Part shown: in pieces, positions 44,094 to 59,300 of the stretch
How the letters are laid out: each line of letters opens with the position of its first letter
Numbering within the stretch: position 1 is the stretch's first letter
Assembly (NCBI RefSeq): GCF_000372725.1
Contig: NW_005201298.1
Span: 249,393 to 313,392, forward strand
DNA: 64,000 nt
Origin: Emiliania huxleyi CCMP1516
Taxonomy: Eukaryota
Reading direction: 5' to 3'
Position numbers and translations under genes: made by a program
Notes under the pieces: generated by a model
Told to the model about the DNA's origin: nothing
The model's input: the letters and a program-made list of their open reading frames with translations, nothing else
Database searches by the model: none

Positions 44094-47000
44094 AGCCGCC
44101 GCCGCCGCCGCCGCCGCCGCAGCAGCCGCAGCAGCAGCAGCAGCAGCAGCAGCAGGCCAGCAGCAGCCTGCCGCCGCCGCAGCAGCCGCGGCCTCCGCCG
44201 CCACAGCAGCAGCCGCCTCTGCAGCAGCTTCAGCCCCTAGAGCCGCCGCCGCCGCAGCAGCAGTCCCGGCCGCGGGTGAGTGAGCTCGAGGCCGCGCAGC
44301 GGCTGCAGCAGTGGCCGAGGGGAGGGGTCGCGCTGCGGCCGGACGGGGGAGGGACGCTTGGCAAGCCCGTCCGGCTCTTCTCCAACTTCTCGCCCGTCCG
44401 CGTGAGGGAAGGCGGCGTGGAGGTGCACCAGTACTCGCTGGCGTACCTCAAGGGCGAGGGAGAGGAGCTCGAGCTCCGGACAACGCAGCGGCGGCGCGAC
44501 GTGCTCCTCGAGTTCAAGGACAACATCGACGTCGCTTTTGGCGTCCGCGAGGGGGCAGCGTGGGTGTGGGACGGGGACAAGATCTTCATCTCGACGCGGC
44601 GGATCGACAGCCTCTCGATGGAGCGGCCCGGCCTCAAGCTGACGTGGCAGTACGCGAGGTCGCTCCGGCTCGAGGGCGACCACCGGGAGGTGTACCAGGC
44701 GCCGTCGCTGCTCTGTCCCAACCCCTCTGCGCGCTATTGCAATAGAACCCCCCCCCCCCCCCCCCCGACTGGACAGGTGTACGACCTCGTGCTGCGGCAT
44801 GAGCAGTCGATGATGTTCAAGGCGGTCGGCAAGGCCATCTTCAACCCGGACCGGCAGACCTGGCGAGACAGGTTCCAGAACCTGAACAAGACGCTGTGGC
44901 TCGGCCACCGGCAGAGCGTTGTCCGCGGCGAGGGCGGCACGCCTATGCTGCTCGTCGACAAGGCGGTCACTTGCGTGCTGCGGCCGGTTAAACTCATCGA
45001 GTTTCTCTGCGTCGAGCTCGGGCTGCGGCAGCACCGCAAGCTGAGCACGCAAGAGCTGGCCGCCGAGCTGCGCAAGCCAAAGGTGCTCGCCGACGTCCGC
45101 AAGCAGCTCAACAAGCGCAAGGCGAGCCCCCTCCGCCTCCGCGCCCCCACCCCTCCTCCCTCCGCCTCTGTCTCCACCCCCGCTCCACCATCTACCCACC
45201 GCGCCGCCTCATTCGCAGGTGACGCACCGCCACCCGCAGTACGCGGAGTGGAGCCAGCGCTGGGAGGAGCACAAGCGCAAGGGCAAGAGCGGCATCGGTC
45301 CGAGCCGCCCCCTCACCGACGTGAGCGACAAGCTGCCGCGCGAGCACTTCTTCGAGACACCCCAGGAGCTGCGGCAGCAGCACCCCGCGGCTGAGATCTC
45401 GGTGCAGGACTTCTTTCGGCTGCGGTACGGCATCGAGCTGAAGCACCCCGAGCTGGTTCTGGTCGGGTTTGGGAAAGGCGGCCGTAACCTCGTCCCGATG
45501 GAGCTGTGCGACTTCGTCGGGGGCGAGGCGGCGCGGCTGGCCACGGCGGATGAGCGCTCCAAGCTGGTCAAGGAGACCTCGCAGCCTCCGGCGCAGCGAC
45601 TCGAAGAGATTCGGACATTGCAGAGAGACGTCGGCCGCGACGCCACTTGCCGCGCGTTCGGGCTCGAGGTCGGACCGCTGCTGGACAACGTGCCCGGCCG
45701 CGTCCTTCCGGTGATGAGCCTCGGGTACGGGCCCGAGAACAACCCGCGTGTCGCGATTCCAGAGGCGGGCGGCAAGTTCCGCGGCAACTGGCGCACCCCG
45801 CCCGGCGCCACGTACATCCGACCTGGAAACGTGCAGCGGTGCGTGGTGGGCCTTTTCCCGCCATCCGGCAAGGATCACCAGCACTTCCTCGACGTGGGCG
45901 GGCTGCAGCGTGGGCTCAGCGGGCTGATTGCGGATGCGGGGAAGCTGGGCCTGAATCTCGACTTTGGGCCCCTCGTCCGCCTCGAGGGGAGGGAGGTCCG
46001 GCTTCAGGACCCCTCGCTGCTGATGTGCCTCCGGGACACGTCCAGCGCCGAGGAGGTGGAGCAGGAGCTGGCGCGCGCCTTTGGCGAGCTGGGGGACAAT
46101 GTCTTGCTGCTGGCGATTATCCCTGACCAGAACAATAACGCGCGCCCCTTCTTGTCCGCGGCGCCCCAACGCACGAGACTCCCACCGTCCCTCCCTTTTG
46201 TCTCACGTAGGCGTGGCAGCACCCCATCCGGGCGACCAACAAGGCGCTCTGCTCGCGCATCGGCATCGCGGTGCAACACTGCAAGGTGAACAAGTTCAAG
46301 TCGCCTCCGCCGGTTTAAGCGCTCCGCTCCTCGCCGCTTCTCTTGCGCTCTCTTAGACCCGACTTCCGGCTACAGGGCTACTGGAGCAACCTGCTGGACA
46401 AGCTCAACCTCAAGGCGCTCGGCACAAACTACTACCCGCTGTGCGAGGTGCCCGGCGGCGGCTTGCAGCCCGGCTTGCAGCTGCTGCGGGAGTGCCCGAC
46501 GTTGCTGCTCGGCTGCGATGTCCACCACGCCGCGCCCGGCTCGAGCAGGCCCTCCTACGGCGCGCTGGTCGGCACGGTGGACAAATTCTTCTCTTCCCAC
46601 TACACCGAGGTGCGGGCAATGACTGGCCGGCAGGAGTGCATCCCGGTAGACGACATGCAGAGCATGGTGCGCGAGCAGCTGAAGGCCTTCTACCGGTACA
46701 ACGGCATACCTCCCCAGCGCATCATCTGCTATCGCGACGGCGTGGCGCACAACCAGTTCGAGGAGGTGCACGAGGTCGAGATACACGCGATTGAGCGGGC
46801 GTGCCACGCGATTGAGCAGGGGTACCAGCCTCAGATCGTCTTCATCGTGGAGCAGAAGGGCGGCGGCGCGCGCTTCTTTGCGAACGAGAATGGGCGCGTG
46901 CCCGGCCAGCAGATGGGCAACCAGCCTCCTCTCACGGTGGTCGACACTGTGGTGGTGGACGAGTCGACCTTCAGCTTCCACTTGACCCCTCACCACGGCA

Positions 47001-47281
47001 TGAAGGGGACGTCTCGCGGCAACCTGTACTCTGTGCTGCGCAACGACCCCAACCTCTCCTCCGACGACCTGCAGCGCTTCACGAGCCAGCTCTGCCACCT
47101 CTTCCAGCGCTGCAAGAAGATCGTCTCCAAGGTTGCCCCAAACTACAACGCTCACCTCGCTGCGGAGATGTGGGGGCTCAAGGAGGAGCGCGAAAGCTTC
47201 TCCGACACGGCCTCGGTCAGCAGCGACGCCGCCGCATGCGACGTGCACGAGCGCCTGAAGACGCGTCTCTTCTACACATGA
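43469..47281 (+). CDS. AGO: Argonaute (PAZ, MID, PIWI) with extra N-terminal domain and P/Q linker; introns include 44699-44776 and 45122-45218
   Basis: GTLGKPVRLFSNF, SVQDFFRLRYGIELKHP..VPMELC, KLNLK, LGCDVHH, RQECI, PQRIICYRDGV, HHGMKGTSR, LCHLFQRC, YNAHLAA. Confidence 0.95.
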
Positions 47282-49918: not shown

Positions 49919-50760
49919 ACGACAAAATAGCGCCCGTGATTGCCTGCACGCTACCCGCACTCACGGAATCCATACCCGAAAGAAAGAGAGGGGAGCTCGC
50001 GGGCGGGAGAGGTGACGAGTGAACTACAGGTAGTGGGGAAGGCAGCCTCGATTGCCATACAGACATGGGTGCGGAACAACGACAAGACCAAGGCACGGGC
50101 AGAGGAACGAGAGAAGAATATAGGGTGGATAAAGCGCCTGTTCACGGCATGGAGGGTGAGCCACACCGAACGTACCGAACGTAGAGCTGAGCGGAAGGCA
50201 GCGGGGGAAGACGACTCCGAGGAGGACGAACCAGTGGAAATTCAGTTGTCAGATGTCACGATGCATCCGAAGGGGACCCCAGCGCCGGCATCATCCGTAG
50301 AGGCACGAGTGTTCGAAGAGAGAGTGGACCTGAGCAACAACATGACCTGCAGGCAAATGCTCGGAGTGGGAGTCAGAAATGTGGTCCTTGCGCGAGGGGA
50401 GCTCGATAGACTCGAGGGGCCAGGATACGCCGCGAGGAGGACGGAGTTGCGCCGAAAGGCGAAAGAAGCCGCGAGAACAAGGGACCGGCAGGCGGCGGCG
50501 TCGCAGGACGAGACAGAAGAGAACGACGCGACAGAGGAGGAAATGACAAGGGAGAGAACGACGAGAGTGGGACGACCGCGAGGTGGCATGAAGGTTGCAG
50601 CGAGAAGCGGCGAGAGACTGCGAAGAGAGATAGGAAGAGGCGGACGCCCAAGGGTGGGCGACGGCTAGCGCATCACACACCTCTCCTTAAAATCCCTGTG
50701 TGGTGGCGGCGTGCCGTCCTCCCATCCCTCCCTTGGGTTGTCTGTTTTCTTTCTTTCTTT
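49919..50760 (+). mobile_element. 5'-truncated non-LTR retrotransposon (family A, ~840 bp) with 11 bp TSD
   Basis: Purine-rich ORF ending RVGDG* at 50668, shared 3' UTR and (TTTC)n tail; AAGGCCAACCC at 49908-49918 and 50761-50771. Confidence 0.85.
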
Positions 50761-50909
50761 AAGGCCAACCCGTGCAGTCGAAGACGAAGAGAAGTAAAGA
50801 GAAAAAGAAAAGTTAAAAAAACAGGAAAAGTAAATGGGAGCGGAACAAAAATAGAAAAAAAAAATCCCGCTGTGCACGGCGTGCCAACCTCCTGCACCCC
50901 CCCCAGTCT

Positions 50910-53900
50910 ATGTTCGCCGTTCTCACCCTCGTGCCGGCGGCACCGGCGGCGACTGAGCCGTGCACCTGTGCTTTGAATTGGACGGATCCAGACAGCGGCC
51001 ACGCTTGCAGGGAGCCGCAGTTCGGTTGCCCGCCGGTTGCGTGCGACGGACCGTACCCACCGTGGTGCGTCGTCGAGTCGCTGCCGTGCGCCGACCCTGA
51101 CCCTGACTCAGGCATCAACACTGGCTTGTACGGCGGAAATTGGATTCATTGCGAGCCGGAGTATTCGCCAACGCCGCCGAGTTATCCGCCGCCGCCGCCC
51201 TTTGCAGTTGTGCGAATCGGCGCCCTCTTGCCGCGGCAGCTGCCAAGCGGCGAGTTGATGCACCTGGGTCGGGCAGAGGAGCTGACGTCCGTGCTCATGG
51301 CAATCGAGGAAATCAACAACAAGACAGACGGCGTGGCGGACGATCTGCTTCCAAACACGCAGCTTTTGCTCGCACACCGCGACTCGCGCTGCGACCCGGC
51401 ATTCGGCAGCGACGCGGCCTACCAGCTACTGCACCACGCGTTCGACGGCGCCGGCTGCGACGCGCTGGTTGGTGCATACTGCTCAAGCGCGTCCATCCCC
51501 GCTGCGAGGCTGGCGGAGCTGACGGCCACCCCGCAGGTACTCACTCTAAGAGGACCGTGTGAGTGTTGCTTATGCAGTCTATAACGGTTGCTGACTCAAC
51601 TGCTATTAGGTCTCTCACTCCTCTCAGAGCCCGGAATTGAGCGGCGACGACTTTCCCTTCTTTGCGCGGGTTGTCACCTCTGACTCCCTCATGGCTGTGG
51701 CTTTGGCTGAGGCCACTCGAAATCTCCTCGGCGTCAAGCGCGTGGCCACCATTGCGTGCACGGACGCATACTGCACCGCCGGCGTGGCGGCCTTTGAGGC
51801 GGCTGCGTCTGCTCAAGGAATCACCATCATTGAGTCCGTCCGCTTCGAAAACGGTCAGAGCAACCTCGGCGAGCCCCTCGGTGCTTTGCGCGCCTCGTGT
51901 GCGACCGTCTTTGTCGCCATTGCTCTTGCAGAGGATGCAGATCGCCTTTTGGAGCAAGCCCTCGGTGCACGGCTCGTCGGCCCTGAATTCACCTGGGTTG
52001 GCGACATCGGTCTGTTCGAAGGGCTGGGCTCGCTGGCCGGCCGTGGCCTCCCCGTGGACGATTTCCGCGGAATACTCGCGATCACAAACTCAATCGCGCC
52101 AAGCGTGGCGTACGACGGCTACGCCTCTCGCAAGCGCGCACGGCCATCCACGCTCGGCGACGGGACAAATTGCGACCCGGCAGACGACGACGAGGGGCAC
52201 AAACTCTGGTCAGTTGATACGGATGAGGATAGAGCGCCACGCTGCTTCGGTGCCAACAATCAGTTTCCCGAGAGCGTCTATGCCCCGAGAGCTTACGATG
52301 CTGTGTACGCTGTGGCGCACGCAGTGCAAGCGCTGGTGGACGACCCGTTGGTTCAGCGTATCGACGGCGACGCTCTGATGGCGGCCCTTCTCGCCGTCCG
52401 GTTCGACGGCGTGACGGGCAAAGTCTCCTTCTCGTCCGAGCCGGCCACCCTCGGCGACCGCGCGGGTGGCGTCCTTTACGATGTGATGAACGTGAACGCG
52501 TCAGGCGCGTGGGTCAAGCTTGGCACCTGGCAGCCAGCCGACAACTGGGAGCAGAGCTTTGCCGGCAACGGTCAGGCGCTGACGAGGCCAACGCCCGACA
52601 ACAGCAAGCCGCCAGAACTCGTGGGCGACACGCTGCGCGTCGGAGTCTTTTGTGATGATCATGTTGGCGAGTCGGAGTGCCAGCATGTGATGCACATCAT
52701 TGACCGGATCAATGACAAGAAGGACGGCTTCCTAGACGACTTACTTCCGGATCACACGCTCTTCTACTCTATGGTTCAGACAGGGACCACCGGCTGTGCC
52801 GAGTCTGAGGCCATTCGACGCCAGTTCGATCAGCTGTACTCCGACTTGAATGGAGTAGTCGCCACCATCGGCCCGTTCTGTTCGGATGACGTGGCTGCTG
52901 TGACAGCCGCCGAGTGGCGCGCTGGAGCCGACATCTCTACCGTCGTGCTCTCGCCGTCGTCGACGGCTCCGATCTTGGCGAACGTGGGCGCATACCCGAA
53001 CCTGTTGCGCCTCTCGAGCAACGACAAGCACGTCACGTCCGCCGTTGCAGCACTCGCAGAGCGGCTGGGATGGCAAGCCATTTGCGTGCTCCATGACGAC
53101 GGTCTATGGGGACGCGGGGTCATGCAGTCTTTCACCTCAATCTTTGAGAGCTCAGGTGGGAAAATCGTAAACAATGGCACGGCGGAATTTTCCAAGGCAG
53201 CTTTTGACGGCGGCAACTTGACAGGGAGCGACCTGCTCGACCAGCTCGAAGACTGCCAAATCATCCTCCTCGTCGCCTACCCGGATGCGCAGCGGGCTGT
53301 GTTTGCTGCCTCCTATGACGAAGGTCGGCTTTGGGGGCCGGGCTACGCTTGGCTCAACGCGTATCCGGCTGAGGAAGCCCTCTACAATGCAGATGGCTCG
53401 GTGAACTCGTCCGCTGTGCATGGCTCGGAGGGGTGCTCGGAGTCATCGAGTCATCCGGCGTGAGCAGCGCCTCCGACCTCAGCCTAAAGTATCAGGCGCT
53501 GTGGGATGAGGTGTCGAGCAGTCAGGGCTGCACCAACATGAGCCCGCAGTCCCGACCCTTCTGCGACCACGACGACGACGCCTCGACGCTTCCCGATTAC
53601 ACGGCAATGTACGTGGATGCAGTGATCAAGCTCGCAGTCTCTGCCGATGCTGCGATCCGCAACGGCTCACGGCCAGGAGACGCAGATGCGCTGTACGCGA
53701 CGATGCTGGCAGCTGACACCGTGACGGGGCTGAGCGGGCCTCTTGTTTTCGACGACAGCGGAGATCGACTCGGTACCTTGGAGGTGCTCAACTACCGGCT
53801 GCTCACCGAAGCCTCTCAGTCAGGGCGCCGCCTTAGCTCGGTACTTCTGCCGCGTTCGTTGCTTGAGTTCTCAATCGTGGGCAGCTACTCTACCGCAACC

Positions 53901-55707
53901 TCGACACTGCAGCTGCCAGACGTTGGCGCTCTCGTCTTCTCCGGGGGATCGACGGAGGTGCCACAGCACTCCTCCCCTCCTCCACCGCCTCCGCCGCCAG
54001 CACCTCCTCCTGAGCCGCCGTTGAGCACTGGCGTACTCGTCGTGATCGTCTTGCTTTCGGTAATGACACCCGTCGTCGTGATTTGGGTCGCCGTTCGAGA
54101 GTGGCGCCGTCGGCGGGAGCGCGAGCACGAATGGACAAGACAGCAGTGGCTGAGATATCTCTCAACGGGCCAGCCCGTGCAGCTGGAGCCGCTCACAGAC
54201 GGCAACAAGTACCATCTCTTTCTGTCCCATTCGTGGCTTTCCGGACAGGATATGCATAAGGACGCTGTCCGAGTGATGAAGGAACGGCTGCTCAATCTCT
54301 TGCCGGACACGAAGATCTTTCTCGACGTGGACGACTTGGCGTCCGGGCGAGGCGCAGCCGAAGTTGCTATGTCCAAGATTCTCGTCGTCTTTTTGTCGGA
54401 TGGCTACCTCACGCGCCCCAACACCGTGCGCGAACTGCTTCGGGCGATGAGCCTGCAAAAAATCGTTATCACCGTCTACGATGAGCGCAGCGTCTACATG
54501 GACAAAGGTGTGCTCCGAGCAGCGATCGAAGCAGCTTGCCTGAACCTTTCGAGGTGGGGTCTCGACGGCGACTTGGCGGCCTGGGGCGCAGAGGTCCCGA
54601 CCACGGCCGACATCTTTGCTGCGCTGACAGCACAGCCTCTCCTGTGGACTCGTGTCCCAGCTTTCATGAACGTCACTTTGCAGGCGTGCGTGACACCGCT
54701 GGTTCAGCCCAAGGCGCCCATGTTGCGACCAAGCGCAGACGGGAAAGCGAATCTCTCCCCGGAGGCGCTCCAGCGCACAGTCGAGATGCTGGTTCAGCCC
54801 AAGGCGCTCATCTTGCAATCTGTCCCGTCTTGGGCGCAGAAGGGGCTTGGTCGCGCAGACGGGAAAGCGAGTCTCTCCCCGGAGGCGCTCGAGCGCGCAA
54901 TCGAGATGATGCAGGCTGCTGCTGAGCCTGGCGCGGCGGCTTCGACGAGGCTGTACACGCGAGCCGGCATTGGCTTCACCTGGCAGAGGCTCCGCGCTGG
55001 AGAGAGATTTCGAATCTACGCCAGCCCACACAACCCCGGCGCGCTCGAGCTCACCCAGGAGCTGTCTTGCCTGCTGCAGCACCTCGACATAGAGCTCGAA
55101 GTGACGACCTCCGTCGCCGACCTCACGGCCTGCAGCCACATGCTGCTGTACCTCGACAAGCGCACCTGGGTGTCGACGGAGAATGACCAGCGGATAGCCG
55201 CGCTCTCAAGCGACGTGAAGGCCGCCCTGGCCGGGCGCGTTCACCTGCTTCCGGTTCACGAGAGCGAGCCGTTTGAGTACATGGCGGGCAGCCACGCCGG
55301 CGTCAAGTTCGACGACCTCCTCGACTGCGTGGATGGCGCGACCCCCATCGAGCTGCTTCAGCGACAGGTGAGTCCCCGCGCTCCCGCTGCATCATCAGCG
55401 CGTAGCATAGTGCCGTCGACTCGCCTCCACCTCTGTCTCTCAGGTCTACGCGGAGGTTGCGGTGCCGCTCAAAGAAGGCATCTATCGGCCCGCAAGCCTG
55501 CTGCTGCTCGCACGCGCTGTCGGCGACCAGACGCGGACTTCGGCGCTGCGGCAGCTCACTTTTTCCTCCAAAGAGCTGCGCCTGCCCTCTATGACTTTGG
55601 CGGAGGGCAGTGCGAGTCTGATGAGCCGGACGAGCAAATATTGCCGCTCTCTCTCGAGCCGGCAGAGCACACCACACGGACGCAGGAGGGCGCTCCCTCC
55701 TCTCTGA
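50910..55707 (+). CDS. Receptor with Cys-rich N-terminus, two Venus-flytrap (ANF-receptor type) domains, one TM, TIR and a second TIR-like domain; introns 51537-51609 and 55368-55443; frameshift at 53430-53433
   Basis: VFT1 MAIEEINN..LLPNTQL..DSRCD..VGAYCSS..FPFFARV..AYDAVYAVAHA; VFT2 IGPFCSD..YPNLLRL..LGW; TM GVLVVIVLLSVMTPVVVIWVAV; TIR YHLFLSHSW..IFLDVDDL..VVFLSDGYL..VREL. Confidence 0.85.
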
Positions 55708-56327
55708 GGGTTGGATGGTCCGGACCTGCCCGGCATTTGGGTACCACTTTGCCCACGCTGCAGTCGCGCTGCCAAGGCCTGCTAGCATCTTTGGTACCAC
55801 GCGTGCCGTCGTCCTCTGTCGTCCTCTGTCGTCCTACGTAGAGATAATGTACAATTGCAATACGGTATCTTGTAGTACGGCCTTATAGCTAGTAGTGCAG
55901 TTACTGCACACTGCACTCGCATGAACTGCCTTGTTAAACATAAAGAGACGAAGGCGCTCACACTCGAAACGCTGCGATCGCGGTGTCGGCAGCGTGACGA
56001 AGCCGCCCACAAAACACGCAAGCACACACACAGGCACAAGCACATACACACAGGCGTCTCCATAGGTGTGCTATGAATCAGCAGCCAGACCTGGCCCATC
56101 TCTCAAACGTCCAGCCTCCCCCCCCCGCCCCCGCCCCGGGCTACCCCCCCCCCCCCCTCCCCCTCCTTCCGTACGCCGCCCGTCTCTGGCACCCCCCCTT
56201 GCCAGCGGTGGCCCGGCTCGGCCGCCCTGCTGGCACACGCACCCCCTCCCCGCCCGCGCCTCTCTCCGGAGGGACACAACTGCGGCGCGTCGACGAAGCT
56301 GCGAGATTCCCCGAGATTGCCCCGCGA

Positions 56328-59300
56328 CTACCGGAGGACGAACTGCGACGTGTCGACGAGGCACGCCGCCTGGACGGCCGCCGGAGTCAGCGGCGCATCG
56401 ACGTGCAGCGGAGGCTGCTTGGACGCGTCTCCCGCGTCGGCGCGCGCCGCGAGGATCGCGGCGCGTGCGGCGAGGAAGGCGGCGGCGGCGAGCGCCATCG
56501 GCGGCTCCGCAGACGCCTTGGAGTGCAGCGTCGCGCCCGGGGCCGGGTTGGGCGCGCGCGGCAGGAAGGAGACGTTGAGCTCAAGGGGGATGTCGTGCAC
56601 AGCCGGCACCTGTGCTCCCCCCGCGCCGAGCGTGGGGAATCGGAGGTGTCTCGGAGGTGTCTCGGAGGTGTCTCGGAGGTGTCTCGGAGGTGTCTCGGAG
56701 GTGTCTCGGAGGTGTCTGGGAGGTGTCTGGGAGGTGTCTCGGAGGTGTCTTGGAGGTGTCTCGGAGGTGTCTCGGAGGTGTCTCGGAGGTGTCTCGGAGG
56801 TGTCTCGGAGGTGTCTCGGAGGTGCACCTTGTACTCCCACGTGCCGAGCGTCGTCGGCGCGCCGCTCGGCGAGTGGGAGACGACCTCGGGGAAGAGAGAG
56901 CAACGCCGGTTAATGACAGGGAATGATGGAGAGGAATCGCTCGGCGGGCGGGAGACGGCCTCGGAGAAGAAGAGGCCGAGCGCCATGACGAAGCCCCCCT
57001 CGACTTGCCCGAGGTCGATCTCCGGGTTGAGGGGCGTCCCCTGGTCCATGAGCAGGTCGGCGCGCAGGATGCAGGTCTCGCCAGACAGCGCGTCGATCTC
57101 GACCTCGCAGATTAATCAGCACTACTCAGCACTACTCGGCACTGGGTCACCGACGGCGGGTCGCGCTCTCCGCCTCGCAGCACGCCACGCCCGAGGTTGC
57201 GTAGTCGAACTTGGGCACCCCCTCGGGCGCGGCCCCGCCGAACCAGCCGCTCGCCGCGAGGGACACGCCTACTCACACCCTCCCCCTTCCCCGCGGGCGC
57301 CTTTCCCTCCACCCCAGCCGCTCCCCCCACGAGGGAGTCGCCCGCGTCGGTCGCCGCTTTGACTGTGGCCTCCCACGCGCCCTCCCCCGCCGCGCCAGCC
57401 GCCGGCCGGAAGGGGAGCAGGCGAGCGTTGAGCGTCTCCGCCGCGTCCAGCACCGCCTTGGCGACGCACTCCGGGGTGTGAAGGGAGGGGCTGGTCAGGC
57501 GCTAGTCAAGCGTCCAGCAGCGCGCCTTGACGACGCACTCCGAGGTGGCAGAGCCGCCCGTGTCGGCCGAGCCGGGCGTGGCGAGCGACGAGGTGTCCGA
57601 CACAGACACGCCGCCGAGCGGGCAGCCGAGGGCGAAGGCGGCCGCCTGCGCCGCCTTAGTGTGGATGCCCTGCCCTAGCTCGCACCCTCCGTGGGCCAGC
57701 CGGACGGACCCGTCCGCCAGCACGCCGAGCGAGCAGCCCTCCTTGTACGCGCCTCCGTTGTCCTCGATGCCGTACTTGACGGGGACCATCCTCAGCCCGC
57801 GCTTGCGCCACCGGTTGGAGCGGTTGAACGCCTCCACCTGCTCACGCCAACCAATGCGAATCAATGCTGGCCAATGCGAATCCATGCCGAGGAATGCGAA
57901 TCCATTGTGAGTAATGCGAGTCCATGGCGAGTAATGCGAGTCAATGCGATTGCAATAGGTTGGGGCGCGGTTTTCGAGCCCCCGCCTGCTCGCGCCGCGC
58001 CGCAACCTCCCACCGCGCCTTCGCGGACTGCCACATCGCCGGCAGGTTCCAGTTGAAGCCGTTCTCGCCCACGGTGACGCCGCAGAGGGCCGCGTCCCCC
58101 GTGGCGTACAGGTTGGCCTCGCGCACCGCGTCCGCCGGCAAGCCGACCGCCTCGGCCGCAGCCTCCATCGCCAACTCGTGCAGCGGGATGGTCTGCACGA
58201 CGCCGGGAGCTCGGCACGCGGTGCTGCCTACGTGTGGGACGAGGCGAGATTGCGCGAGACTGCCCGAGACTGCACCACCCCCCCGGGGAAGCGCGCGGCG
58301 CTGCCTACGACGCCGGAGTTGTAGAACGAGCCGTGCACCGCGAAGTCGTCGGCGCGGTACGCGTTGTCCGCCCAGCAGACTCCCATCGTCAGGTCGCCTG
58401 TCGAGCACCAATTAATTAATTACCAATTTTAATTAATTAATTAATTATAATCAATACTCCCATCGTCAGGTCGCCTATCGAGCACCAATTGACTGACTGT
58501 TCGTCCTTCGCCACGAATCAGAGCAGGCGCCCGTCGTCAGGTCGCCTGTCGAGCACCAATAATAATAAATAATAATAATATAATATAATATAACTCCCGT
58601 CGTCAGGTCACCTGCGCCGCCGTCGACGACGCCAGAGTCGAACGCCGCGGTGAGCTCGATTGACGAGACGACGCCGCCTGTCGGGACATGTCGCGGACAT
58701 GTCCCGGACGTGTCGCGGCGCTGCGGGGAGCTCGAGAGGGGATGGTACGCCACCCTGGTCCACCGCGAGCCGGAAGGAGCCCTCCATCGGCGGCCGGCCG
58801 CCCGTCGACGCCATGTCGTCCGAACGGTCGTTGTGCAGCCGCACGGGGCGGCCGTGCTTGGCGGCGGCGACGGCCGCGGCGATGGCCGTCGGGAGGTGCG
58901 CGTTGAGCTTGCCGCCGTACGCGCCGCCGATACGGCGCACGCGCACGTCCACCGTGGCGAGGGGGAGGCCGAGCGCGCCTAATCTCGGGTAATCTCCGGT
59001 AACCTCGGGCAATCTCGCCGTCCACCGTGGCGAGGGGGAGGCCGAGCGCACCCGCCACCGCCGTCTGCGTGCGGGTTGGGTTCTGGTTGGCGCAGGTGAT
59101 GGAGAGGCCGCCTCCCTCGACCTACAATAATGAACGGGCTCCTCTTAACGAACTGATCGGTATCGGTGATGGAGAGGCAGCCTCCGTCGACCGGCAGGGC
59201 GAGCGCGGTGTTGGTCTCAAGGTAGAAGTGGCGCTGGCCTGGTATGGACCAGTGAACCCATTAGTAATCAGCGTCTTGCGGGTCACCATAGGAGGACACA

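What the first reader, a model, noticed from the sequence alone, without database searches (positions are those of the whole stretch)
50910..55707. Tandem Venus-flytrap / TM / TIR receptor: a small-molecule sensor wired to a TIR domain
Seen: Cys-rich N-terminus, two complete periplasmic-binding-type domains (about 51205-52540 and 52630-53970), one TM helix (about 54030-54095), a TIR domain with the conserved Glu (NTVRELL) and a second TIR-like block (MLLYLDKRTW..DVKAAL..LLPVHE). Established: VFT domains usually feed class C GPCRs, ionotropic receptors or guanylyl cyclases, and Glu-bearing TIRs can be NADases in immunity and cell death. Inference: a ligand-gated TIR signalling receptor, an architecture I do not know as characterised.
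Basis: partly seen in the sequence, partly recalled or inferred. Interest (0 to 1): 0.8.

Follow-up and report, generated by a model that had tools for sequence, protein, structure and literature searches.

The report
Algal flytrap receptor with twin TIRs
A bloom-forming alga has a spliced gene for a membrane protein with two outer 'Venus flytrap' domains and two inner TIR-type domains, which likely turns a chemical cue in seawater into an NAD-derived signal; a similar one-flytrap receptor was already predicted in this alga, but no ligand or enzyme activity has been tested for either.

Summary
Architecture confirmed. The three-exon gene encodes a Cys-rich N-terminus, two Venus-flytrap (VFT) domains, one TM helix, a TIR domain and a second, degenerate TIR-like domain. 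The first TIR models onto SARM1 (Z 14.0), and its alphaC Glu is kept in 163 of 163 aligned sequences. All 7 covering runs carry the extra base, one only in part. The public model P0171 (EMIHUDRAFT_454995) hides the break with a doubtful 74-nt intron. One RNA contig spans VFT1 to the second TIR. The cytoplasmic module belongs to a large family (1,432 clusters at 50% identity; named members are haptophytes), mostly multi-pass TM-TIR-TIR' receptors with exchangeable ectodomains. VFT1 is 37-39% identical to VFTs of class C GPCR-like proteins. Shaler et al. 2025 already predicted a one-VFT/TM/TIR protein in this alga, so the basic idea is in print. The tandem VFT, the second TIR-like domain and the sensor swapping were not found in my searches. 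Best reading: a ligand-gated TIR NADase receptor (~0.5), untested.

The parts
50910..51536 (+). Exon 1: short hydrophobic N-terminus (signal peptide not tested), Cys-rich ~70-aa module (50958-51161), Pro-rich spacer, first lobe of VFT1
   Evidence: no Pfam match for the Cys-rich part; Atlas hits 0.88-0.89 to unnamed clusters, leads only
51537..51609 (+). Intron 1, GT..AG, 73 nt
   Evidence: spliced in X4 and X5 contigs
51207..52620 (+). VFT1 (ANF_receptor), class C GPCR-like lineage
   Evidence: Pfam; mGlu6 E 1.5e-21 for P0001; 39% and 37% identical to the VFTs of 7tm_3 proteins P0169 and P0170
52630..53972 (+). VFT2 (ANF_receptor), different lineage, 20% identical to VFT1
   Evidence: GABA-B1 E 3.8e-06
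53426..53433 (+). 1-nt frameshift in the window only (assembly error or allele of this strain)
   Evidence: extra base in 7 of 7 covering runs, X1 partly; the segment skipped by the public models is coding in P0002-P0004
53973..54029 (+). Pro-rich stalk
54030..54098 (+). Single TM helix, followed by a basic cytoplasmic stretch and a juxtamembrane motif shared with the multi-pass family
   Evidence: hydropathy 2.95; motif in 78 of 123 family members vs 17 of 372 control windows
54210..54700 (+). TIR domain 1; candidate catalytic Glu at 54432-54434 on helix alphaC; the window allele has a 12-nt insertion at ~54252
   Evidence: insertion absent in X1, X2, X4, X5, X7, X9
54701..55004 (+). Low-confidence linker with a 90-nt tandem duplication (copies at 54699 and 54789)
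55005..55520 (+). Second, degenerate TIR-like domain (TIR'), split by intron 2 (55368-55443); Asp at the alphaC position
   Evidence: hhalign to TIR1 profile prob 83.7, E 8e-06; alternating beta/alpha order in both models; no Pfam match
55444..55707 (+). Exon 3: last strand and helix of TIR', then tail to the stop

Best explanation
The gene encodes a single-pass membrane protein with two Venus-flytrap domains before the TM helix and a TIR plus TIR-like pair after it, and it likely works as a small-molecule-gated TIR enzyme receptor. Shown: domain order, splicing, one transcript-type contig across all domains, TIR fold, invariant alphaC Glu, and conservation of the layout in relatives down to about 58% identity. 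Inferred: (1) the VFTs face outward and close on a small carboxylate or amino-acid-like ligand, since both keep the Ser and Asp of the class C binding motif and VFT2 the Thr; (2) closure re-orients or clusters receptors, as in VFT-TM-kinase and VFT-TM-cyclase receptors; (3) clustered TIR1 domains cleave NAD+ to ADPR or a cyclic ADPR messenger; (4) TIR' is a non-catalytic or weakly catalytic partner that scaffolds or restrains TIR1. It is one of several VFT-bearing members of a large haptophyte TM-TIR-TIR' receptor family whose sensors have been exchanged.
For: TIR1 fold: the top VIA rows are TIR domains, SARM1 first (Z 14.0, rmsd 2.4, 128 aligned); Foldseek on relative P0022 gives RUN1, RPP1 and SARM1 TIRs (E from 1.7e-05). 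Glu in 163 of 163 rows filled at that column (165 rows aligned), while neighbours vary (Asn 141 of 163, Arg 137 of 163). The TIR' equivalent is Glu in 99 and Asp in 33 of 153 rows, Asp in the window. Same layout in P0002 and P0004 (two VFTs), P0003 and P0187 (one VFT seen), and with a separately placed TIR in P0102. Binding motif: Ser and Asp208-like in both VFTs, Thr in VFT2 of 4 of 4 proteins, Tyr in VFT1 (motif from PMC2680970 section 21). VFT1 shares a lineage with class C GPCR-like P0169/P0170 and with Prymnesium VFT-7TM-TIR P0020. Precedent for VFT-TM-enzyme receptors activated by L-Arg: PMC2680970. Protist TIRs can be NADases: bioRxiv 10.64898/2026.04.20.719644.
Against: No ligand, enzyme or localisation data. 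[quoted passage not shown] The Asp318-like residue is absent from both VFTs, and the window's VFT1 has Gln at the Thr position (Thr in P0004 and, read by eye, in the X4 allele). The N-terminal signal is weak (hydropathy 1.23). The window's own copy is frameshifted, and both named public models skip the same segment, so a real null allele in that strain is not excluded. Glu conservation is measured on hits chosen by similarity to the query. The Glu was placed on alphaC by secondary-structure order, not by residue-level superposition on SARM1 E642.
Confidence: 0.5

Rival explanations
1. Scaffold receptor: the ligand-bound VFTs cluster the TIRs, which recruit TIR adaptors (TLR/IL-1R style); NADase activity is absent or incidental.
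For: IL-18Rbeta, IL-1RAcP and MAL TIRs score Z 12.3-13.2, within about 1-2 of SARM1; low hit rate of protist TIRs in the E. coli assay (4 of 29); family members carry PDZ, C2 or RING tails.
Against: Glu invariant in 163 of 163, whereas most scaffold TLR/IL-1R TIRs lack it.
Confidence: 0.2
2. Pattern or danger receptor: the VFTs bind a virus, bacterial or damage-derived macromolecule or peptide rather than a free metabolite, and trigger TIR-mediated defence or death.
For: 7 of the 15 infection-responsive TIR genes in Table S9 of PMC12489294 carry this family's W-x-x-G-Q-D motif (read by eye); cogent1101_i1 (PBP1/EGF/TM/TIR) is induced early in infection; natriuretic peptide receptors use VFTs for peptides (recalled). 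Among 77 displayed variant sites VFT2 had 19 amino-acid-changing vs 8 silent, TIR1 6 vs 9 (crude, biased subset).
Against: This gene's TIR is not among the 15, and its accessions are absent from the two supplements searched. The ectodomain is not faster-evolving than the TIRs against P0004 (VFT1 77%, VFT2 69%, TIR1 71%, TIR' 68%). Small-ligand pocket residues are kept.
Confidence: 0.2
3. In this strain the copy is a frameshifted allele that gives only a truncated, TM-less 826-aa VFT protein or nothing; the receptor is intact only in other strains.
For: Frameshift in the window; both public models P0001 and P0171 skip the same segment; X1 shows the extra base at only 24.4 of 44.7 depth.
Against: 7 of 7 covering runs carry the extra base; the P0001 model also drops the TM by an in-frame intron that no frameshift forces, so these models skip coding sequence anyway. 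This rival concerns the allele, not the architecture.
Confidence: 0.25
4. Artefact: a chimeric gene model joining a VFT gene and a TIR gene.
For: The frameshift lies between the two halves; Pfam TIR is below cut-off.
Against: Continuous VFT-TM-TIR ORFs in P0002, P0003, P0004, P0187 and P0102; one spliced RNA contig; X7 record 16 spans 53000-54507.
Confidence: 0.02

Closest known systems
G. huxleyi cogent1101_i1 (Shaler et al. 2025, PMC12489294)
   Same: Periplasmic-binding type 1 ectodomain, one TM, TIR with conserved Glu and the same W-x-x-G-Q-D TIR motif; same species; proposed receptor-like role.
   Different: One PBP plus EGF-like domain there, against two VFTs of different lineages plus a Cys-rich module here; different TIR sequence; no second TIR-like domain is mentioned in section 20 or Table S9; it is virus-induced, while this gene is not listed.
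Venus kinase receptors (PMC2680970) and natriuretic peptide receptors
   Same: VFT - single TM - cytoplasmic enzyme; amino-acid motif partly kept; oligomeric activation as the model.
   Different: Output is TIR-TIR', not a tyrosine kinase or guanylyl cyclase; tandem VFTs.
Class C GPCRs (mGlu, GABA-B1, T1R3)
   Same: Best solved-structure sequence matches of both VFTs; VFT1 is 37-39% identical to VFTs of 7tm_3 proteins P0169 and P0170.
   Different: No 7tm_3 domain; one TM.
SARM1 and plant TNL TIR NADases
   Same: TIR fold and alphaC Glu.
   Different: Those are intracellular, with ARM-SAM or NB-LRR regulators; here TIR1 is longer (extra helices at model residues 109-150), membrane-tethered and followed by a degenerate TIR-like domain.
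Toll-like and IL-1 receptors
   Same: Ectodomain - one TM - TIR.
   Different: No LRR or Ig domain; VFT sensors; tandem TIR module.

Membership tests
TIR NADase (SARM1/plant type) | TIR fold | tested here: met
   (Z 14.0, rmsd 2.4, 128 aligned)
TIR NADase (SARM1/plant type) | Glu on helix alphaC (TIR1) | tested here: met
   Glu85 of the model on helix 80-91 after strand 65-72; 163 of 163; not superposed residue by residue
TIR NADase (SARM1/plant type) | NAD+ cleavage and product | not testable with these tools
   needs an assay
TIR NADase (SARM1/plant type) | Self-association of TIRs | not tested
TIR domain (second block) | TIR-like fold and homology | tested here: inconclusive
   hhalign to TIR1 prob 83.7; beta/alpha order fits; Atlas: 7 of 30 hits in a set led by a cluster with TIR_2 on 15% of members; no Pfam hit; not folded or searched alone
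TIR domain (second block) | Catalytic Glu | tested here: not met
   Asp in window, P0001 and P0002; Glu in 99 of 153 family rows
Amino-acid-binding VFT (class C motif) | Ser165-, Asp208-, Thr188-, Tyr236-like residues | tested here: inconclusive
   Ser and Asp208 in both VFTs; Thr in VFT2 only (Gln in window VFT1); Tyr in VFT1, Trp in VFT2. Mapped through the mGlu6 alignment; the mGlu6-to-mGlu1 equivalence is recalled
Amino-acid-binding VFT (class C motif) | Asp318-like residue | tested here: not met
   Ile (Asp one place earlier) in VFT1, Tyr in VFT2; Asp in P0169, P0170, P0020
Class C GPCR | 7tm_3 domain | tested here: not met
   one TM; no 7tm_3 in P0171
Toll-like receptor | LRR ectodomain | tested here: not met
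Venus kinase receptor / natriuretic peptide receptor | Kinase or guanylyl cyclase domain | tested here: not met
G. huxleyi PBP1-TM-TIR receptors (Shaler 2025) | PBP type 1 ectodomain, one TM, Glu-TIR | tested here: met
G. huxleyi PBP1-TM-TIR receptors (Shaler 2025) | Induction by EhV infection | tested here: inconclusive
   not among 15 DE TIR genes; accessions not found in 2 supplements; their TIR search could have missed this sub-threshold TIR; the sequence file s001 could not be read

The most novel reading that the evidence does not exclude
Haptophytes have a receptor superfamily, over a thousand sequence clusters deep, in which one-pass and multi-pass membrane receptors carry a built-in TIR/pseudo-TIR NADase in place of G-protein, kinase or cyclase output. 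GPCR-type Venus-flytrap sensors have been plugged onto it repeatedly, so seawater metabolites or infochemicals would directly gate cADPR-type signalling, and the tandem VFT form would integrate two different ligands.
Probability: 0.3. Interest if true: 0.82.

Novelty: new variant of a known kind. Interest (0 to 1): 0.55.

Why it matters
If the mechanism holds, this would be an extracellular small-molecule-gated TIR enzyme, a coupling for which I found no characterised example in 8 literature searches, in an alga whose blooms are ended by viruses and shaped by chemical cues. It gives a direct test (soluble VFTs for ligand screens, TIR1 Glu mutant) of how coccolithophores sense infochemicals. 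It also shows that the infection-responsive TIR genes reported in 2025 belong to a much larger modular receptor family that Pfam mostly misses.

Tried and rejected
No whole genome was held, so no paralogue count and no check of the P0001 locus. Pfam alone does not call the TIR. A profile of the cytoplasmic module against PDB sequences gave NELF-C/D at E 0.003 (rejected: partial match with a long gap, not seen in the fold searches) and TIRs only at E 0.15-0.89. Viral fold search: 1 hit at E<=0.001, a Chrysochromulina ericina virus TIR protein (2.6e-06, rmsd 19.7), taken as a generic TIR match. X16 raw reads gave 0 reads, no test. An apparent stop from one displayed variant at 53374 is likely part of a three-base codon change (Ser in P0002); the third base was not among the rows shown. 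The variant count (77 shown sites; 306 and 39 rows hidden) is too biased for a selection claim. The TIR tree is a quick tree of 160 of 165 rows (5 short rows dropped): the window's clade of 8 has 96 support and P0102 falls elsewhere, but a single origin of VFT-1TM is not excluded and test_one_clade was not run. In the VFT trees long branches meet. The two VFT-based homologue searches returned only 4 and 6 proteins among ~8,000 capped candidates, so VFT partners are under-sampled. Earlier-findings look-ups were empty. Literature searches with no relevant new paper.
Full report
Gene and observation. The region is a eukaryotic three-exon gene on the + strand: 50910-51536, 51610-55367 and 55444-55707. 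Intron 1 is spliced in contigs of X4 and X5, intron 2 in X5 and X9 (X4 and X5 are RNA by guess, X9 by record). Exon 2 changes frame at about 53428. Eight of 16 listed runs were laid. Seven cover the site and all seven carry one extra base there, X1 at 24.4 of 44.7 depth and the rest at full depth; X16 gave no reads. The public protein P0171 (EMIHUDRAFT_454995, Emiliania huxleyi CCMP1516 by its source) equals the window's exons letter for letter if a 74-nt intron is placed over the break. The skipped segment is coding in P0002, P0003 and P0004, so that intron is likely a predictor's patch. A second public model, P0001, skips the same segment and also the TM. Read with X at the break the protein has 1,549 residues. 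One 3,849-nt RNA contig (X9 record 26) runs from 51627 to 55667, through VFT1, VFT2, TM and both TIR blocks. A contig is not proof of one transcript, but unbroken VFT-TM-TIR ORFs in P0002, P0003, P0004, P0102 and P0187 agree.

Ectodomain. Pfam finds ANF_receptor on exon 1 (E 2.2e-09) and twice on exon 2a (E 1.8e-51). The best PDB sequence matches are mGlu6/8/7 for VFT1 and GABA-B1 and T1R3 for VFT2. The two VFTs are only 20% identical, so this is not a recent duplication. VFT1 is 37-41% identical to VFTs of two 7tm_3 proteins (P0169, P0170), a tandem-VFT one-TM protein (P0168) and the Prymnesium parvum VFT-7TM-TIR protein P0020. Of the five alpha-amino-acid-binding positions named in PMC2680970 (abstract, section 21 and passages read), both VFTs keep the Ser and the Asp208-like residue. 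VFT2 keeps the Thr, VFT1 keeps the Tyr, and neither keeps the Asp318-like residue (mapping to mGlu1 numbering is partly recalled). This fits a small carboxylate ligand that need not be a standard amino acid. The Cys-rich N-terminal module has no Pfam match and only unnamed Atlas look-alikes under 0.9.

Cytoplasmic module. Pfam TIR scores are below cut-off (E 0.086 and 0.099). AlphaFold2 with a 77-sequence alignment gives pLDDT 81.4 and pTM 0.75. Residues 10-175 align to SARM1 TIR (Z 14.0, rmsd 2.4, 128 residues), followed by IL-18Rbeta, TIR-1, IL-1RAcP and plant TIRs; a model of relative P0022 gives the same class by Foldseek. The Glu of NTVRE lies on the helix after the third strand and is present in 163 of 163 filled rows. 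The second block has the same alternation of strands and helices and aligns to the first (hhalign 83.7, E 8e-06). It lacks the first-strand and second-strand motifs, and at the Glu position has Glu in 99, Asp in 33 and other letters or gaps in 21 of 153 rows, Asp in the window. I treat it as a degenerate TIR, not proven by a fold search of its own.

Family. The module has 1,432 relatives among 50%-identity clusters at E<=0.001 (483 at 1e-10). The three named hits are E. huxleyi (2) and P. parvum, and Atlas clusters for TIR' are mostly Haptophyta where known (12-14 members each); the true range is not established. Of 167 proteins held, 45 have at least 450 residues before the TIR: 38 have four or more hydrophobic segments there, 4 have one and 3 none. 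Ectodomains include Ephrin_rec_like, beta-helix, MAM and VFT; tails include PDZ, C2 and RING (20 + 36 proteins scanned). A juxtamembrane motif is shared by one-pass and multi-pass members (78 of 123 vs 17 of 372 control windows), which suggests that last helix, linker and TIR pair move as a unit. The window's TIR sits in a clade of 8 (support 96, quick tree). Within it P0003 has one VFT behind a different N-terminus. P0187 (cluster of P0022) has a VFT 18% identical to the window's VFT2 but 38% to that of P0102, whose TIR lies elsewhere in the tree. Sensor exchange is the simplest reading; it was not tested with a topology test.

What is in print. PMC12489294 (abstract, passages, section 20, Table S9 and supplement searches read; Fig. 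S9 and file s001 not seen) describes cogent1101_i1 of G. huxleyi. It has a periplasmic-binding type 1 and EGF-like ectodomain, one TM and a TIR with conserved Glu, is induced early in EhV infection and is proposed as receptor-like. Seven of its 15 TIR genes carry this family's motif (by eye). This gene is not among them. bioRxiv 10.64898/2026.04.20.719644 (abstract, passages, first third of Results; supplements closed) shows NADase activity for some protist TIRs, 4 of 29 tested; its Table S4 might include a haptophyte TIR of this family. bioRxiv 10.64898/2026.10.11.758280 (passages) added nothing on this architecture. Searches for Venus flytrap or ANF_receptor with TIR, for TIR with Emiliania and NADase, with Prymnesium, with Gephyrocapsa and with 7TM (listings only for other papers) found no tandem-VFT TIR receptor, no TIR-TIR' module and no assay. 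The library lacks most subscription papers.

Mechanism and verdict. Most likely, ligand closure of the VFTs re-orients or clusters the receptor, and TIR1 then cleaves NAD+ to a messenger, with TIR' as scaffold or brake (0.5; every functional step inferred). The rivals are a TLR-style scaffold (0.2) and a pattern or danger receptor (0.2); separately, this strain's allele may be null (0.25). The architecture is real and conserved. The one-VFT version is already predicted in print; the tandem sensors, the degenerate second TIR and the family-wide sensor swapping are additions. New variant of a known kind; interest 0.55.

Noticed in passing
P0019 (EMIHUDRAFT_201153) vs cogent2074_i1 in Table S9 of PMC12489294: The TIR and 5' end printed for cogent2074_i1, a core resistance gene called cytoplasmic with 0 TM in the paper, match P0019 by eye. 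P0019 has 6 predicted TM segments before the TIR and a C-terminal RING, so the transcript may be a 5'-truncated multi-pass receptor of this family.
   Followed up: partly
cogent2900_i1 in Table S9 of PMC12489294: Its printed 5' sequence reads by eye like the second lobe of a VFT, before one TM and a TIR of this family: possibly another VFT-TM-TIR gene that the paper annotated as TIR only.
   Followed up: no
P0020 (Prymnesium parvum), P0168: P0020 is VFT - Cys-rich - 7 hydrophobic segments - TIR - TIR', a GPCR-like layout with TIR output. P0168 is another tandem-VFT one-TM protein whose cytoplasmic part looks out of frame.
   Followed up: partly
window 45045-47281 (+): Argonaute gene: PAZ E 3.8e-09, ArgoL2, Piwi E 5.4e-52, in two frames meeting near 46290-46320 (intron or frameshift not checked).
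   Followed up: partly
window 50600-50780: Very high-copy repeat just upstream of the gene (summed contig depth 263,928 in X1 against 6-105 in the gene), overlapping the end of a 242-codon open frame at 49940-50668 with no Pfam match.
   Followed up: no
window ~56300-59200 (-): Intron-rich gene whose pieces look like a xanthine dehydrogenase/aldehyde oxidase molybdopterin domain (by eye, recalled motifs), with tandem 12-nt repeats at ~56640-56825.
   Followed up: no
window 54252 and 54307-54310: In-frame indel polymorphisms in loops of TIR1: 12 nt extra in the window, about 27 nt extra in X7, with a similar insert in P0004.
   Followed up: partly
P0055, P0140: Family members with no predicted TM: ankyrin repeats before the TIR pair in P0140, and what looks by eye like a further TIR-like domain at the N-terminus of P0055.
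   Followed up: no
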